From positions 74,705,949 through 74,769,948 of the forward strand of contig JARDVH010000025.1 in assembly GCA_030324005.1 (NCBI GenBank): DNA of 64,000 bases. The letters are read 5' to 3'. Positions within the stretch are counted from its first letter, which is position 1. Each line of letters starts with the position of its first letter. The DNA comes from Negaprion brevirostris. Its lineage: Eukaryota. Shown piece after piece: positions 32,701 through 38,700 of the stretch. A program made the position numbers.

Positions 32701-35700
32701 ATTTCTGGTGTTGTCCACGCTGAATGTCATAACAGGAGGAGTGTTGATGCAGATGTCGATGGGCCAGCTGCTTGAAGTATACATAATATGCAGCTTATCA
32801 ATCAGTGTATAATTTTGACTTGATGCCAGTGCTGCTATTTTGGAGCTCAAAACTCCAGCTGACATCATCCCTGAAACAAGCACAGCTGGACACATGTTTA
32901 GCAGCAGGAAGGGTCCCCTAATCCTACACTATTTAAAGGGAGCATCATGTCAGCTGACTGTTACTTACTGGCTCTTGCTATGATTTTGTAAAATCATTTG
33001 TGTTTTAATAGAAATGTAGAAAGATTTGTGGCACAGAACGAGATCATTAGAAGAATTCTTTACGATTGCTAAAGTTTACAGGAAGTCATACGGCAGGTGT
33101 CCTTGTCCAAAGTTCAAGGATTCTGCAGAAACCACTTGCTCCTCGCCATTGGGATATGGCAGCAGGAGGATAGACTCTCCCTAGACAGCAGTGTGACGGA
33201 GAGAAGAAGCAAAGATGACATGGAACAGGACCAACTGCTGGAAGAGGAAGGAAGAGGAGATCGACATGTGCTCTCAGTCAAAAGCCGTATCTACACAGGG
33301 TGTTTAGTGAGCAGTTTTCCTTCCTAAACTTTAACAACAGCTTACTAATTTAGTAAAACATCCCATGGCACTATACAGTCATTATGAAACACAATTTATC
33401 ACTGAGTAGCATTGGAGATTCAGATGGCCTAAGGTTCCTAAAATTAGATTTTAAGGAGCTTCCTAAAGGGAGAACAGAGACATGGTCACCAATGGTGAGG
33501 TCAATGAATTTGAAGATACTGACGAGACTGGAATTAGCAGTGTGCATCAATTTTAAGGATGGAGGGGATTACAAGATATGAAGGGGCAAGCCCTGAAGGA
33601 AATTGAAAACAAGGATGAAAATTTTAAAATTGAGACATTGCATAACCTGGGGCGACTGTAGGCTAACAAGCATAGGCTGGATGCCTGAGCGGGAACTAGC
33701 AAGTTAGGTCACAGGCAGCAGAATTTTGAATGACCTCAAGTTTGCAGAAGGTAGAACAAGGGAGACCAGCCAGAAATGTATTTGAATAGTCAAGTGACTG
33801 ATGGATGGGAGTTTCAGCAGCACCAGGAGAAAAGGACGAAGGTGGGGACCATTATAGAGTGGAAATATGTGGTCTTAGTGATGGTGTAGATGTATTGTTG
33901 AAAGTTCACCTCATGATTAAATAATACACCAAGACTACAAACAGTTTGATTCAGCCTCCTCAAGACAGTTGCGTGGGATAGGGATGGAGTTGCTAACAAC
34001 GGAATTAAGTTTGTGACATGAATCAAGATAGTGGGCATGATCTTACAAAATAAATTCAAAGGGCTGAATGAGCGAGAAAATGGGAAAGAGTGTTGCTGAT
34101 TTTTTTTCAGCAAGCTGCAAGTCACAATCTTACAGCATTCAATGCAAAAAAAGAGCCTTGTTCTATTATTCATGTGGAGGGTGGGGAGGGGAAGCTTGAG
34201 CTCGCCGGTGAAGTCAGGTGCAGAGTGTTTAGAGCACCATTGCACAGGCGCCCTGATCTCCCAGTGTAATGGAAGATCTCCTGCCATCCCTCCTCACTCC
34301 TCCTTGGACATTACTGTACCCCCCACTGATTGCTCCCTGTGCCAGTCCCTCAACCCTAGCCTGCCGATCACTCTCTGTGCCAACTCTAATCATGACATTA
34401 ATGGTTAAATCGACACAAAGCCGATCACACTAGAAAAACAGGGCAAGGAAGATGAGATCAGTTTGCGCCTGCTGCAAAAGCCTCATGTTATCTTCGACCA
34501 CGCAGCAGGCTGGAATAAACGCACCCAGTGACCGGTTTTCCCAATGTTTAGTTGGAGGAAATTTCTGCTCATTTAATTCTGGTGTTTGAACCAGCAGGCT
34601 GACAAGTTAAAGACAGCAGAGGGGTCAAAAGTGGTCAACCATGNNNNNNNNNNGAGGGTGAGGTAGAGCTGTGTAGTGTCAGCAGACATATGACAACTGA
34701 CACTGTGTTTTCTATTCATGTTGCCAAGTGACAGCATGTTAGTGAAAAACAGGACGGACTAAGAATAGAATCCTTAGGGAACACCAGAGGTATCATTGAG
34801 GGTGAGCAAATAGAAGCCATTTTAGGTAATTCTCTGGCTACAAGTGAACAGATAAGAATTGAACCACACAACTGCAGTTCCACCCAGTTAGACGGACAGA
34901 CCCAGTGGAGAGACTTTGGAGTGGTATTTTGTGGTTAATGTGCCAAAGGCAGCAGTACATTGTGAGGGATACCATGACTGCCCCTGACAGGCTATACAAA
35001 ACCTACCTGCCTGTAGATTCAAAAGCCAACCTGGAGAAGTTGTCTTCACCTCCACCCTCACCCCTCCAGGTGGCCTGGCCGCTTTTTGCATTTTTTATTA
35101 AAAGTTTTTTTAAAAGTGGCTATTGAGGGGCCGTCCCACCCAGAAAGGAAGAAAGCAAACTTGGGAAATCTTTGGTCTCACCCATCGACTCTGTCCACAC
35201 TACCCCGCTGCCTCAGAAAAGCAGCCAGCATAATCAAGGACCCCACACACCCCAGAAACTTTCTCTTCCACCTTCTTCCATCAGGAAAAAGGTACAAACA
35301 TCTGTGATCATGTACCNNNNNNNNNNNNNNNNNNNNNNNNNNNNNNNNNNNNNNNNNNNNNNNNNNNNNNNNNNNNNNNNNNNNNNNNNNNNNNNNNNNN
35401 NNNNNNNNNNNNNNNNGGCAAGATAGAAAAAGTGAATGAAGAAAGTAGCAGCTGTGCAAGCCTTTGTTCCTGGTGTTACAGCTGAAGCCACAATGAACCA
35501 TATATCAGCTACCAGCAGATTTACTGCTATATTCAGAATTCCAACATGGCGAGTATATGAAGTCTTATTTTTGGTCACATGTTTCCACACCATGGTCTCT
35601 ATGATAATAATAATTAATAAACATCCTATTGATATGGCAACTCCAACTGTGGTTATATACTCCAAAGCTGGATCGTCTATGGAATCAGGAGACATTAAAA

Positions 35701-38700
35701 TAGAAAAGGATGTCAAGTGATCACAGTTACATGTGATATTTTCCCCATTAATTTCAGGCGTACAGCCAGTGTTATTCCAAGTGCCATTGCCACTAAAGTC
35801 CCAAAATGCACACATGGCCGTGTTGAGATCAAGCATGTGATTTCTTGGTGAGAAGGTCAAGCTGATGTTAACAGGTTTCATAATGTTTAATGTGATTGTC
35901 ATAACAAGACCATTAATCAAAAAGTCTCCATCGAAGGTTGTAGTATTGGGTAAAATATCAATCAATGTTGGATATGCAATGGTGATAACTGTGGCATTTG
36001 ATGTATCTTCAAATTCTTCAGAGGAAAGGAATACACTTGCACTTAAATTGGAATATTCTCCGGTTGAGATGTTAACAAAGGGCTCGATAATAGAACAGTT
36101 CCTGTTATGACCATCAATTCTAGCAGCTCTGAATTCAAGATTATCTTCTTTGAACTGCAAACAGTAAATCTGCTGATTGAGGCGTTGATTAAACTTTTCC
36201 ACCGCCTGTAATAATTGAGAACTAGAGCTGGAATTATTTTCAGTTCGTGTGTTTGTGAGAATTTTCCAACTATCTATTGATTCAAAAGAGATAACTCTGC
36301 TTACAGTTTTCAAGAAATTCTGAAAAACACAAAGCCCAAATTGATCAAATATTCAATTTCAGATTCACAGAAAATCAAACATTTTTAGCATCAGAAAATA
36401 GTCTTGAACTAAGAAAATTAGAAAATAACATGCAGGGAAATAAACAGCTGGTCCACTGTGCCTATCTCACACTTATGAACTCTGGAGAAACATTACTACC
36501 AAACTTTCCCTGTGCAGCCATATAAACCTCCTGAAAAGTCAAAGGAATCCAGAACCAGCAGAGTAAAATCANNNNNNNNNNCTGGAAAGGTTCCCTTTGA
36601 ACCCCTCAGATGATCAAAACAAGCCCAACTGGTCATATTGACCATATGTACATTAACTGTAAATCCACCAACCTTTGATGCAATTCAACTTTGCCCTGAC
36701 TAATTGATTTTACTATTTCCTATTGGAGTTTGCAGAGCATCAGCACACACTTCTCAAGCCAGCAATACATTCCAGCTAGTACTCCTTGAATAAAGAACCA
36801 TCTAACACCTGGACCATTCCTACTTCTGCTTGGTTTAACTGTATGTCTCTCTGATATTACCTCAATATGTCAAGTTGCAATGTTTATCAATAGGCACACA
36901 CTCCAACTCTTATTGTTTCATATACATTGGCATAAGAAATAGGAGCTGGAGTGAACATTTAGTCCTCTGAGTTTGCTCCGCCATTCTATATAATTATGGT
37001 TGATCTTCTGCCACAAATCTTTGTTATCCTCATTGTTGGGGAAAGGAAAATTATTCTAGTAGGTTAGGGAAGATTTTAAACTATTAGATATTTAAGACAA
37101 TAACAGAACTTTGAGTTCAAAGACTTTAAGTCAGACTTATAAGCTTACAAGAGAAAAGTTTACACACATAGAACATAGAATCCAACAGTGCAGAAACAGA
37201 TCCTTCGGCCCATCGAGTCTACACCGACCACAATCCCACCCAGGCCCTATCCCCATTTCCCTACACATTTACCCTCTAATCCCTCTAACCTACACATCCC
37301 AGGACACTAAGGGGCAATTTTAGCATGGCCAATTAACCTAACCTGCACATCTTTAGACTGTGGGAGGAAACCGGAGCACCCAGAGGAAACCCACACAGAC
37401 ACAAGGAGAATGTGCAAACTTCACAAAGACAGTGTGGAGCTGGGAATTAAACCCAGGTCACTGGAGCTGTGAAGCAGCAGTGCTAACCACTGTGCTACCA
37501 TGCCGCCCCAACTGCGACCTTTGTCGCAGTTAGATAGCATGTAGTTTTTTTATCTTAGTAAGAGCCATTTCATTACTTTGGTGGGAATTGGAAAATGATT
37601 GGAGGGATGCAACCAGGAAGCTCCAAGACAAATGGGCATGGATTTGGGAGGCAACAGGAGAGGAAAGGGAGTTTGGAAATGGGATGGTAGCTGGCAAGAA
37701 TGGAGGGAATGGGTGGTGATGGCAGATTGATGGTGAGAGGAACAGTATTCAGATAAGAAATCTGTTTCCAATATCAGCTAATACAGGAGCTTTATAGAAA
37801 CAAGGTCCAGAGAGCCAGAAGTGGATTTCATTGTGAACTTGAGATCAGGGAGGATATGAAGGAGATAGAAAAGAATCAAGAGAAAGATGTGAGTTTTGGG
37901 GTTGAGGTGTGAGGAACCTCAGGTGAAGTTAGTTTGTTCCATTGGATTAGGAGAAGAGAGGCAAGTAACTGACCTTATGAACAGATGGTCGCCTACTTTG
38001 TGACACGTGCATGAGCTGTTCACACTTATTATTGGAAGTGAGGTAGAATGCGCCATGTAGCGTGGTTTAAGAAAAACATTCATCGCGGAGTAGAGAAGCT
38101 GACTGTTCTGTTTGCTTGGAGAAACTTTGAATAGCGGGCAGTTTTAGGGATGGAGTTACACTTTGTGATCCAGAGAGATAAAACAGTTGTCCACAACAGA
38201 CAGTCAAATCTGCATTCCTTAGACTTTAGGAATCAAAGTTGGAGGTGTACATCAAGGAATGACTAGAGTGAGTGAGAGTTATGATTTTAGTGGGGCCAAG
38301 ATAATGTAGAGGATGACAGCAAATCAGTAGCTGCAGAAATGTCCTGATGGATTGTAGGCCAAAGACTAGATAGTTGGGAATTGAAAGTGAGCCTCAGAGC
38401 AGAGAGTAGGATGGCATTGCCAAAGTTGGTGAAGAAGGTTGTGATTGTAAATATTTATCCAGACTGGAGCAGGTGGGTAATGGCAACATCTCCCAGTTCA
38501 CAACCCATTGTTGCACAAGAGAAGTTACTGAAGCTCTGCATCATAAGAGAGCTGACATACGCTCCATTTTCTCTTGCCAGAGAGAAGCAGGCAGAGCCTA
38601 GAGGACCCACTGTTGAATTGCACTATCTTGGCTTGGGCAGCAGGTCAGTGCTGGCTCGTAGCATGAATACTGCTGGAGTGGCAGTGGTTGAATACTGCTG

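What the first reader, a model, noticed from the sequence alone, without database searches (positions are those of the whole stretch)
35417..36319. Adhesion GPCR (ADGRF) nested antisense inside DNMT3A intron 20
Seen: 903 bp of uninterrupted minus-strand coding sequence with a canonical acceptor, encoding GAIN, GPS and TM1-3 of an ADGRF receptor. It lies between DNMT3A exons at 31056-31141 and 56243-56312. Known: human DNMT3A has no such nested receptor to my knowledge. Inference: an ORF this long and intact among heavily decayed repeats suggests a live gene. A cell-surface receptor transcribed head-on through the catalytic-domain introns of the de novo methyltransferase could couple the two genes by transcriptional interference, or influence DNMT3A exon 20-21 splicing.
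Basis: partly seen in the sequence, partly recalled or inferred. Interest (0 to 1): 0.85.

Follow-up and report, generated by a model that had tools for sequence, protein, structure and literature searches.

The report
Truncated adhesion-receptor exon inside DNMT3A intron
A genuine piece of an adhesion receptor gene (ADGRF type) sits backwards between two DNMT3A exons in this draft assembly, but it is cut off by an assembly gap and stands on a tiny contig, so it is not shown that a working receptor gene lies inside DNMT3A.

Summary
Minus-strand 35417-36319 is an open 301-codon exon behind a good acceptor. It encodes the distal GAIN domain, an intact GPS (HL|T) with Stachel, TM1, TM2 and the start of TM3 of an ADGRF-type adhesion GPCR (Pfam; ADGRF1 E=2.5e-42). 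It is the longest ORF in the window (312 codons against 202).

It lies between two consecutive DNMT3A exons, residues 776-802 and 804-826. Five DNMT3A coding stretches are collinear on the + strand.

The "intact nested live gene" reading is not shown:
- The ORF ends in a 100-N run in mid-TM3, not at a donor or stop, and nothing beyond it continues the receptor.
- The exon has only 1,155 bp of contiguous sequence (35417-36571).
- At least two N runs separate it from any DNMT3A exon on either side.
- No other ADGRF part was found in 64 kb.
- In cattle ADGRF3 and DNMT3A lie within about 1 Mb, so local scaffold misplacement is a serious rival.

Placement, orientation and completeness need long reads or PCR. 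Interest is low to moderate.

The parts
35417..36319 (-). ADGRF-type exon fragment, 301 codons: distal GAIN domain, GPS, Stachel, TM1, TM2 and the start of TM3. It is cut off at its 3' end by an N run.
   Evidence: ADGRF1 E=2.5e-42. By my count on the alignment printed, 99 of 294 aligned residues are identical to human ADGRF1: 15/102, 38/101 and 46/91 in its three blocks, rising toward GPS/TM.
36320..36334 (-). Polypyrimidine tract and AG acceptor (ctttgtgtttttcag) in front of the exon.
   Evidence: Read directly. An in-frame stop lies 11 codons upstream, at 36353-36355. Use of the site is not tested (no RNA data).
35930..36319 (-). GAIN domain part (exon residues 1-130). The profile starts at position 51, so the first part of GAIN must lie on an upstream exon that was not found.
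   Evidence: PF16489, 1.1e-7. 11 N-x-S/T sequons in the extracellular residues 1-210.
35696..35815 (-). GPS motif (residues 169-208) with four cysteines (170, 186, 197, 199).
   Evidence: PF01825, 7.3e-13.
35711..35719 (-). H-L|T autoproteolysis triad (cac ttg aca), followed by the Stachel core TSFSILMSP.
   Evidence: In the alignment the stretch hltsfsilmsp is identical to human ADGRF1.
35417..35668 (-). Secretin-type 7TM domain, first third only: TM1 about 35585-35668, TM2 about 35471-35548, start of TM3 35417-35464.
   Evidence: PF00002, profile 3-90 of 250; hydropathy; helices 217-250, 255-281 and 286-300 in the low-confidence model.
35317..35416 (.). Run of 100 N that ends the exon in mid-TM3.
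   Evidence: The open frames just beyond it (35181-35315, 35237-35314) show no 7tm_2 match.
36572..36581 (.). Run of 10 N, 252 nt upstream of the acceptor. It limits the contiguous sequence that holds the exon to 35417-36571 (1,155 bp).
40764..40863 (.). Run of 100 N that closes the 5.3-kb piece 35417-40763 carrying the exon.
31370..31469 (.). Run of 100 N between the DNMT3A exon-bearing piece (29060-31369) and the exon-less piece 31470-35316.
31056..31141 (+). DNMT3A exon, residues 775/776-803, with a split codon at its 3' end.
   Evidence: 6e-14 to DNMT3A chains; query 2-28 = 776-802 of 9lq1_A.
56243..56312 (+). Next DNMT3A exon, residues 803/804-826.
   Evidence: 1.8e-5; 804-826 of 9lq1_A; DNMT3B chains 1.2e-3.
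29431..29580 (+). DNMT3A coding stretch, residues 725-774 (the stretch searched, not exact exon ends).
   Evidence: 3.7e-28; DNMT3B 8.2e-24.
19507..19590 (+). DNMT3A coding stretch, residues 697-724 (the stretch searched).
   Evidence: 6.4e-15.
13218..13337 (+). DNMT3A coding stretch, residues 655-694 (the stretch searched).
   Evidence: 6.3e-20; DNMT3B 2.4e-12.

Best explanation
The sequence is a real but incomplete coding exon of an ADGRF-family adhesion GPCR. Shown: it encodes the distal GAIN domain, the GPS with an intact H-L|T cleavage triad, the Stachel tethered-agonist core TSFSILMSP, TM1, TM2 and the beginning of TM3. From established knowledge of the family: in a complete receptor the GAIN domain cleaves itself at L|T, and the freed or exposed Stachel strand binds into the 7TM bundle and switches on G-protein signalling. 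Inferred: 301 codons free of stops, with every hallmark residue kept, mean the exon belongs to a gene that is functional or was so until recently. My most likely reading of its position is that 'nested in DNMT3A intron 20' comes from the draft scaffold. A very small contig (1.16 kb contiguous; 5.3 kb with its 10-N join) from an ADGRF gene, probably one in the wider DNMT3A chromosomal neighbourhood, was dropped into a gap-rich 25-kb intron. Its exact place and orientation, and therefore the antisense nesting, are not reliable.
For: Identity. Not chance: (312 against 202 codons; expectation 3.5e-5). Truncation by a gap. No continuation of the 7TM domain: recalled TM3-TM7 motifs gave no credible hit in six frames (one loose hit, on the + strand at 49920). 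358 of 415 minus-strand ORFs of 40 aa or more gave no 7tm_2, GAIN, GPS or SEA match; the other 57, which contain N, were dropped. 76 of 77 small minus ORFs in the two adjoining pieces gave 0 families. The frames directly beyond the gap gave nothing. [quoted passage not shown] The window is a chain of small pieces: 22 N runs, nine of exactly 100 N, mostly about 5 kb apart. The two pieces between DNMT3A exons 20 and 21 that carry no DNMT3A exon (31470-35316 and 35417-40763) cannot be checked against the DNMT3A exon order. This intron is 25,101 nt, against 6,169, 9,840 and 1,475 nt for its neighbours. In cattle ADGRF3 and DNMT3A both lie within 500 kb of one SNP, with seven genes listed between them (PMC11049649, table and methods passages), so an ADGRF gene in the same chromosomal region is plausible.
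Against: The four DNMT3A-bearing pieces are in the right order and orientation, so the scaffolder worked well locally. If its links are short-range, a misplaced piece would still come from within tens of kb, and so probably from inside DNMT3A, which runs off both ends of the window. A gap of unknown size could simply hide the rest of the exon. The Pfam ORF scan is blind to small exons: the ORF 31029-31178 that holds a true DNMT3A exon gave 0 families. Absence of other ADGRF exons is therefore weak evidence. I have no read-level or cross-species data. The cattle synteny concerns ADGRF3, and I could not assign this exon to F3 rather than F1/2/4/5.
Confidence: 0.4

Rival explanations
1. The placement is right and the exon belongs to a live ADGRF gene that overlaps DNMT3A on the opposite strand. 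Its promoter and N-terminal exons would lie at higher coordinates, possibly beyond DNMT3A's 3' end, giving a convergent overlap rather than strict nesting. The rest of the large exon would be hidden in the unknown-size gap at 35317-35416.
For: Intact 301-codon ORF with a good acceptor, GPS triad, Stachel and four GPS cysteines. Identity to ADGRF1 rises from GAIN toward TM (15/102, 38/101, 46/91; my count), as expected under purifying selection. The DNMT3A exon order across pieces is correct. Small exons would escape my scans (control). [quoted passage not shown]
Against: No second ADGRF element in 64 kb. The exon is broken at a gap and has only 1,155 bp of contiguous support. An ADGRF gene has many exons (mouse Adgrf5 transcripts average 20.8; PMC6667449) and cannot fit in one 25-kb intron of a genome whose introns run 1.5-25 kb. 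No expression data.
Confidence: 0.3
2. The placement is right but the exon is a solitary relic. It would be a young partial duplicate, or the remnant of a broken ADGRF gene, ending in TM3 at a rearrangement or repeat insertion where the assembler also lost its way. It makes no receptor.
For: A lone exon ending in mid-domain. No other ADGRF part in the window. Contigs usually break where sequence becomes multi-copy, which fits a near-identical parent copy or an inserted repeat. The ADGRE and ADGRF families are reported as less constrained and variable in number (PMC8584163, passage read). The nearest Atlas clusters are 252-321-aa chordate 'hypothetical proteins' with GPS, and 7tm_2 in part of them (scores 0.95, 0.92, 0.90), a lead that such fragments are common.
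Against: No stop or frameshift in 903 nt and all hallmark residues kept. A relic would have to be young (inference; no rate was measured). Nothing in the window shows a duplication boundary.
Confidence: 0.25
3. The ORF is a chance open frame or part of a transposable element.
For: The surrounding DNA holds reverse-transcriptase and transposase remnants and old interspersed repeats.
Against: ADGRF1 E=2.5e-42 and three Pfam domains above their curated cut-offs, in the right order. Chance expectation 3.5e-5. The exon matches nothing else in the window.
Confidence: 0.01

Closest known systems
ADGRF1 (GPR110), human; solved structures 7wu3, 7wxu, 8hc0, 8g2y
   Same: Collinear match over query 7-300 to residues 379-669 (E=2.5e-42). 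Same order of GAIN, GPS, Stachel and TM1-3. The stretch hltsfsilmsp is identical. About half of the residues from the Stachel through the start of TM3 are identical (46/91, my count).
   Different: Only about one third identical overall (99/294, my count), so it is not a close orthologue by this measure. The first 370 or so and the last 240 or so residues of a full receptor have no counterpart in the window. The solved structures hold only F1 of the F group, so F1 being the best hit does not show that this is F1 rather than F3 or F5.
ADGRF group gene architecture (Knierim et al. 2019, PMC6667449)
   Same: GPS and transmembrane helices lie on one uninterrupted exon, the feature that paper gives as unique to the ADGRF group (passage read).
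   Different: Here the exon is seen only as far as TM3. Whether it runs on through most of the 7TM cannot be seen because of the N run.
ADGRF3 (GPR113), a chromosomal neighbour of DNMT3A in mammals
   Same: In cattle both genes lie within 500 kb of one SNP on BTA11. The gene list reads SELENOI, ADGRF3, HADHB, HADHA, GAREM2, RAB10, KIF3C, ASXL2, DTNB, DNMT3A, POMC, EFR3B (PMC11049649). I recall the same neighbourhood on human 2p23.3; this was not checked here.
   Different: In cattle seven genes are listed between them, so there is no overlap. I could not test whether the window's exon is of the F3 lineage.
Nested and overlapping antisense gene pairs in vertebrates (for example H13/Mcts2)
   Same: If the placement is right, a protein-coding exon lies antisense in an intron of a host gene.
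   Different: The known cases have a complete nested gene, a promoter and transcripts. None of these is shown here. I saw only the listing and the start of the abstract of PMC13309782.

Membership tests
Adhesion GPCR (class B2) | GAIN domain ending in a GPS motif | tested here: met
   PF16489 1.1e-7 (31.9 bits, cut-off 26.5) and PF01825 7.3e-13 (49.3 bits, cut-off 22.5). Only profile positions 51-186 of GAIN are present.
Adhesion GPCR (class B2) | H-L|T/S autoproteolysis triad and a hydrophobic Stachel directly after it | tested here: met
   HLT at exon residues 201-203 (35711-35719), then SFSILMSP. Cleavage itself cannot be tested with these tools.
Adhesion GPCR (class B2) | Complete secretin-type seven-helix domain | tested here: not met
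   7tm_2 profile positions 3-90 of 250 only. The frame runs into N at 35416. No TM4-TM7 anywhere in the window. The missing part may lie in the gap.
ADGRF group | Closest in sequence to F-group receptors rather than to other adhesion GPCR groups | tested here: met
   ADGRF1 2.5e-42, against ADGRD1 1.4e-14, ADGRL3 3e-12, ADGRE5 7e-11 and ADGRG3 1.6e-9. Only solved structures were compared, and no phylogeny was possible.
ADGRF group | [quoted passage not shown] | tested here: inconclusive
   GAIN part, GPS and TM1-3 are uninterrupted. The rest is hidden by the N run.
ADGRF group | Assignment to a subfamily (F3 against F1/2/4/5) | not testable with these tools
The solved structures hold only F1. 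The Atlas gave no subfamily name.
Nested or overlapping gene pair (ADGRF in DNMT3A) | Both genes on one verified stretch of DNA | tested here: not met
   Two N runs lie between the exon and DNMT3A exon 20, and seven between it and exon 21: nine N runs, 1,169 N in all, in the intron.
Nested or overlapping gene pair (ADGRF in DNMT3A) | A complete inner gene (further exons, start, end) | tested here: not met
   No further ADGRF element in 64 kb. Sensitivity for small exons is poor (control).
Nested or overlapping gene pair (ADGRF in DNMT3A) | Transcription of both strands | not testable with these tools
   No RNA data are available.
DNMT3A (host gene) | Collinear exons matching DNMT3A better than DNMT3B, DNMT3C or DNMT3L | tested here: met
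   Five stretches = residues 655-694, 697-724, 725-774, 776-802 and 804-826 in order on the + strand. DNMT3A chains are the best hits in all five searches; for 31056-31139 the margin over DNMT3B is small (6e-14 against 3.7e-13).

The most novel reading that the evidence does not exclude
In this non-mammalian vertebrate a functional ADGRF adhesion receptor gene runs antisense through the last catalytic-domain introns of DNMT3A, as a convergent overlap. Transcription of the receptor and of the de novo methyltransferase would then collide, and the two could be reciprocally regulated.
Probability: 0.2. Interest if true: 0.4.

Novelty: new member of a known kind. Interest (0 to 1): 0.22.

Why it matters
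If the placement were real and the gene live, it would be a lineage-specific overlap between a cell-surface receptor gene and a key epigenetic enzyme gene, and a natural case for studying transcriptional interference. Nested genes are common, though, so this would be a curiosity rather than a new principle. As it stands, the main value is practical. The exon is a good marker for checking this scaffold. Gene annotators should expect a truncated 'hypothetical GPS/7TM protein' model here, and possibly a spurious antisense-overlap call.

Tried and rejected
I did not read stops as X. I sent stop-free ORFs instead, bundled as alignments A1-A5. These alignments are only containers, and the alignments themselves are meaningless.
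2. Motif search for TM3-TM7 used motifs I recalled, not taken from any tool. It gave one loose + strand hit at 49920, which I discounted.
3. Single-sequence AlphaFold2 of the exon product gave mean pLDDT 41.7 and pTM 0.27. That is too poor to use, so no fold search was run. Only its three C-terminal helices agree with the hydropathy profile.
4. Two ESM Atlas calls (20, 54) gave the same list and no F-subfamily name.
5. Self-comparison of the window found only old interspersed repeats of 64-89% identity. No repeat bridges the gaps, and nothing bears on placement.
6. Base composition: the piece has GC 0.40-0.43, inside the window's range of 0.33-0.47, and the skews are erratic. Neither bears on placement.
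7. Rfam at gathering thresholds found nothing.
8. Literature searches: ADGRF3+DNMT3A (3 papers), GPR113+DNMT3A (1 paper), DNMT3A+'nested gene'+antisense (9 papers), adhesion GPCR/ADGRF/synteny/cartilaginous (5 papers), adgrf3a/adgrf3b (9 papers). From titles, abstract starts and the passages I read, none describes an ADGRF gene inside DNMT3A. A sixth search only located the aGPCR evolution papers.
9. Not possible: collecting orthologues, dN/dS, phylogeny, or a look at other vertebrate DNMT3A loci.
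Full report
WHAT IS THERE

On the minus strand, 35417-36319 is an open frame of 301 codons. The stop-to-gap frame is 35417-36352, 312 codons. It is preceded by a pyrimidine tract and AG (ctttgtgtttttcag|AAT..., AG at 36321-36320).

Pfam finds three domains above their curated cut-offs, in the order of an adhesion GPCR:
- GAIN: residues 1-130, profile 51-186 of 210, E=1.1e-7.
- GPS: residues 169-208, E=7.3e-13.
- 7tm_2: residues 218-301, profile 3-90 of 250, E=4e-5.

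Against all solved structures the best match is human ADGRF1, E=2.5e-42, with query 7-300 collinear with residues 379-669. The next families are far behind: ADGRD1 1.4e-14, ADGRL3 3e-12, ADGRE5 7e-11, ADGRG3 1.6e-9.

The hallmark residues are all present:
- four GPS cysteines at residues 170, 186, 197 and 199;
- the H-L|T triad at residues 201-203 (window 35711-35719);
- the Stachel core TSFSILMSP, identical to ADGRF1 in the printed alignment;
- two full hydrophobic helices and the start of a third;
- 11 N-glycosylation sequons in the extracellular part.

By my count on the alignment, identity to ADGRF1 is 15/102, 38/101 and 46/91 in the three printed blocks. It rises from the GAIN part to the membrane part, as in a sequence that has been under selection.

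The ORF is the longest in the window in any frame (312 codons; next 202). From base composition, 3.5e-5 such ORFs would be expected by chance.

THE HOST GENE

I searched the + strand coding stretches one at a time. Residue numbers are those of a 912-residue chain.

| Window stretch | DNMT3A residues |
|---|---|
| 13218-13337 | 655-694 |
| 19507-19590 | 697-724 |
| 29431-29580 | 725-774 |
| 31056-31139 | 776-802 |
| 56244-56312 | 804-826 |

DNMT3A chains are the best hits in all five searches, ahead of DNMT3B, DNMT3C and DNMT3L. The margin is small for 31056-31139 (6e-14 against 3.7e-13).

Residue 803 is the split codon AG|A. The ADGRF exon lies between them on the opposite strand.

The introns seen are 6,169, 9,840, 1,475 and 25,101 nt. 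I do not take the window for human: the receptor exon is about one third identical to human ADGRF1, and the last DNMT3A exon scores only 1.8e-5 against the human chains.

The frame does not end at a donor site or a stop. It runs into a run of exactly 100 N (35317-35416) in the middle of TM3. The window has 22 N runs. Nine are exactly 100 N, seven of them spaced 2.4-5.9 kb from the previous one between 7681 and 40764. Five are 10 N and the rest are of various sizes. It is a chain of small pieces.

A 10-N run sits 252 nt upstream of the acceptor (36572-36581). The exon therefore stands on only 1,155 bp of contiguous sequence, and on a 5.3-kb piece (35417-40763) closed by another 100-N run. Between the exon and DNMT3A exon 20 there are two N runs and a whole exon-less piece (31470-35316). 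Toward exon 21 there are seven N runs.

The four pieces that carry DNMT3A exons are in the right order and orientation, so the backbone of the scaffold is sound. The two exon-less pieces inside this intron cannot be checked in that way. I did not fill or look up any N run.

IS THE REST OF THE RECEPTOR HERE?

[quoted passage not shown] 2019, PMC6667449; passages read). The exon should therefore run on for roughly another 0.5 kb or more. It does not reappear:
- The frames directly beyond the N run (35181-35315, 35237-35314) have no 7tm_2 match.
- Recalled TM3-TM7 motifs give no credible hit in six frames.
- tblastn of the exon product finds no second copy.
- Pfam on 358 of the 415 minus-strand ORFs of 40 aa or more finds no 7tm_2, GAIN, GPS or SEA. 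The 57 ORFs that contain N were dropped, this exon's own ORF among them. The hits were RVT_1 (five ORFs), DDE_Tnp_4 (one) and weak noise.
- 76 of the 77 ORFs of 20-39 aa in the two adjoining pieces give 0 families.
- 140 of the 162 + strand ORFs in the intron give nothing credible.

One caution applies. The ORF 31029-31178, which holds a true 28-residue DNMT3A exon, also gave 0 families. Small exons escape this scan. Absence of upstream ADGRF exons is therefore weak evidence, while absence of a 150-residue-plus 7TM remainder is stronger.

HOW TO READ IT

Shown: a genuine ADGRF exon fragment. Inferred: it comes from a gene that works or worked until recently, because it has no stop or frameshift in 903 nt, keeps all hallmark residues, and shows a conservation gradient.

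Its position admits three readings.

(a) Scaffold placement is unreliable. A tiny contig of an ADGRF gene was dropped into a gap-rich intron. The intron is 25 kb against 1.5-10 kb for its neighbours, and about 15.6 kb without the two exon-less pieces. A relevant fact: in cattle, ADGRF3 and DNMT3A both lie within 500 kb of one SNP on BTA11, with HADHB, HADHA, GAREM2, RAB10, KIF3C, ASXL2 and DTNB listed between them (PMC11049649, table and methods passages). I recall the same neighbourhood on human 2p23.3, which I did not check. An ADGRF gene in the same chromosomal region, placed a little wrongly, is thus plausible. I could not test whether this exon is of the F3 lineage.

(b) The placement is right and a live ADGRF gene overlaps DNMT3A antisense, with the remainder of the big exon in the gap and its other exons small or outside the window. 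Because DNMT3A runs off both ends of the window, even a locally misplaced piece could still lie inside DNMT3A.

(c) The placement is right but the exon is a young solitary relic. The contig break in a coding exon fits sequence that becomes multi-copy at that point. The ADGRE and ADGRF families are reported as less constrained and variable in number (PMC8584163, passage). The nearest Atlas clusters are 252-321-residue chordate 'hypothetical proteins' with GPS, and 7tm_2 in part of them (0.95, 0.92, 0.90). This is a lead only.

I put these at about 0.40, 0.30 and 0.25. Nothing in the window can separate them. Transcriptional interference with DNMT3A, or an effect on its splicing, is untested speculation resting on (b).

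COMPARISON WITH WHAT IS KNOWN, AND NOVELTY

As a protein fragment this is an ordinary member of the ADGRF group. The mechanism expected of a complete receptor is GAIN autoproteolysis at L|T and activation by the tethered Stachel, which is established knowledge for ADGRF1.

As a gene arrangement, antisense nesting is a common kind of thing. [quoted passage not shown]

My searches found no paper that describes an ADGRF gene within DNMT3A. They were ADGRF3+DNMT3A (3 papers), GPR113+DNMT3A (1 paper), DNMT3A+'nested gene'+antisense (9 papers) and adhesion GPCR/ADGRF/synteny/cartilaginous (5 papers). I judged this from titles, abstract starts and the passages I read. The library lacks most subscription journals, and supplements were closed.

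WHAT STAYED UNCHECKED

- Orthologues, phylogeny, dN/dS and other vertebrates' DNMT3A loci.
- Read-level support for the scaffold joins.
- Expression.
- The single-sequence structure model was too poor to use (pLDDT 41.7).

VERDICT

The exon is real and correctly named. The nested live gene is not shown, and the exon is truncated by an assembly gap. Interest is low to moderate until long reads or PCR settle the placement.

Noticed in passing
window 7681-40863: Eight of the nine 100-N runs start in this range (7681, 12705, 17926, 23014, 28960, 31370, 35317, 40764). Each lies 2.4-5.9 kb from the previous one, while the following piece (40864-60996) has only sized gaps (129, 410, 10, 300, 10, 236 N). 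This suggests two different scaffolding or gap conventions in one record.
   Followed up: partly
window 31142-56242: This DNMT3A intron is 25,101 nt, against 6,169, 9,840 and 1,475 nt for the three before it. Without the two exon-less pieces 31470-35316 and 35417-40763 it would be about 15.6 kb.
   Followed up: partly
window 23528-23833 (-): ORF with a DDE_Tnp_4 transposase match (2.4e-7, above the Pfam cut-off), a Harbinger/PIF-type transposon remnant inside a DNMT3A intron.
   Followed up: yes
window 1-234 (-), three further minus-strand ORFs in 1-26513, and one in 52594-64000: Reverse-transcriptase (RVT_1) fragments, best 4.7e-5 and 9.3e-5, all below the curated cut-off. These are decayed LINE copies. 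By eye the ORF 62866-63045 (-) carries an RT-like motif.
   Followed up: partly
window 40663-40763 (+) and 41493-41822 (-): By eye, two LINE reverse-transcriptase-like frames point toward each other across the 100-N run 40764-40863. Pfam did not report the 41493-41822 ORF at E<=0.05. If they are repeats, the piece carrying the ADGRF exon ends in repeat sequence on this side.
   Followed up: no
one minus-strand ORF somewhere in window 1-26513: A Forkhead-domain match at E=2.9e-4 in one of 150 ORFs scanned. I could not locate it with simple recalled motifs. With 150 queries it may be chance.
   Followed up: partly
window 37169-37502, 45800-46135, 32096-32351, 58396-58651, 55210-55332: An interspersed repeat family up to about 340 bp long, at 74-84% identity between copies and in both orientations. 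One copy lies on the ADGRF piece. It was not classified, and Rfam found nothing in the window.
   Followed up: no
window 31029-31178 (+): The stop-to-stop ORF holding a true, highly conserved DNMT3A exon gave no Pfam family at E<=0.05. This is a useful warning that ORF-wise Pfam scans miss short vertebrate exons.
   Followed up: yes
window 56313-64000 (+): Recalled motifs of the last DNMT3A exons gave no hit downstream of 56312. The 3' end of DNMT3A therefore probably lies beyond the window or in N runs (56921-56930, 57163-57398, 60997-61096).
   Followed up: partly
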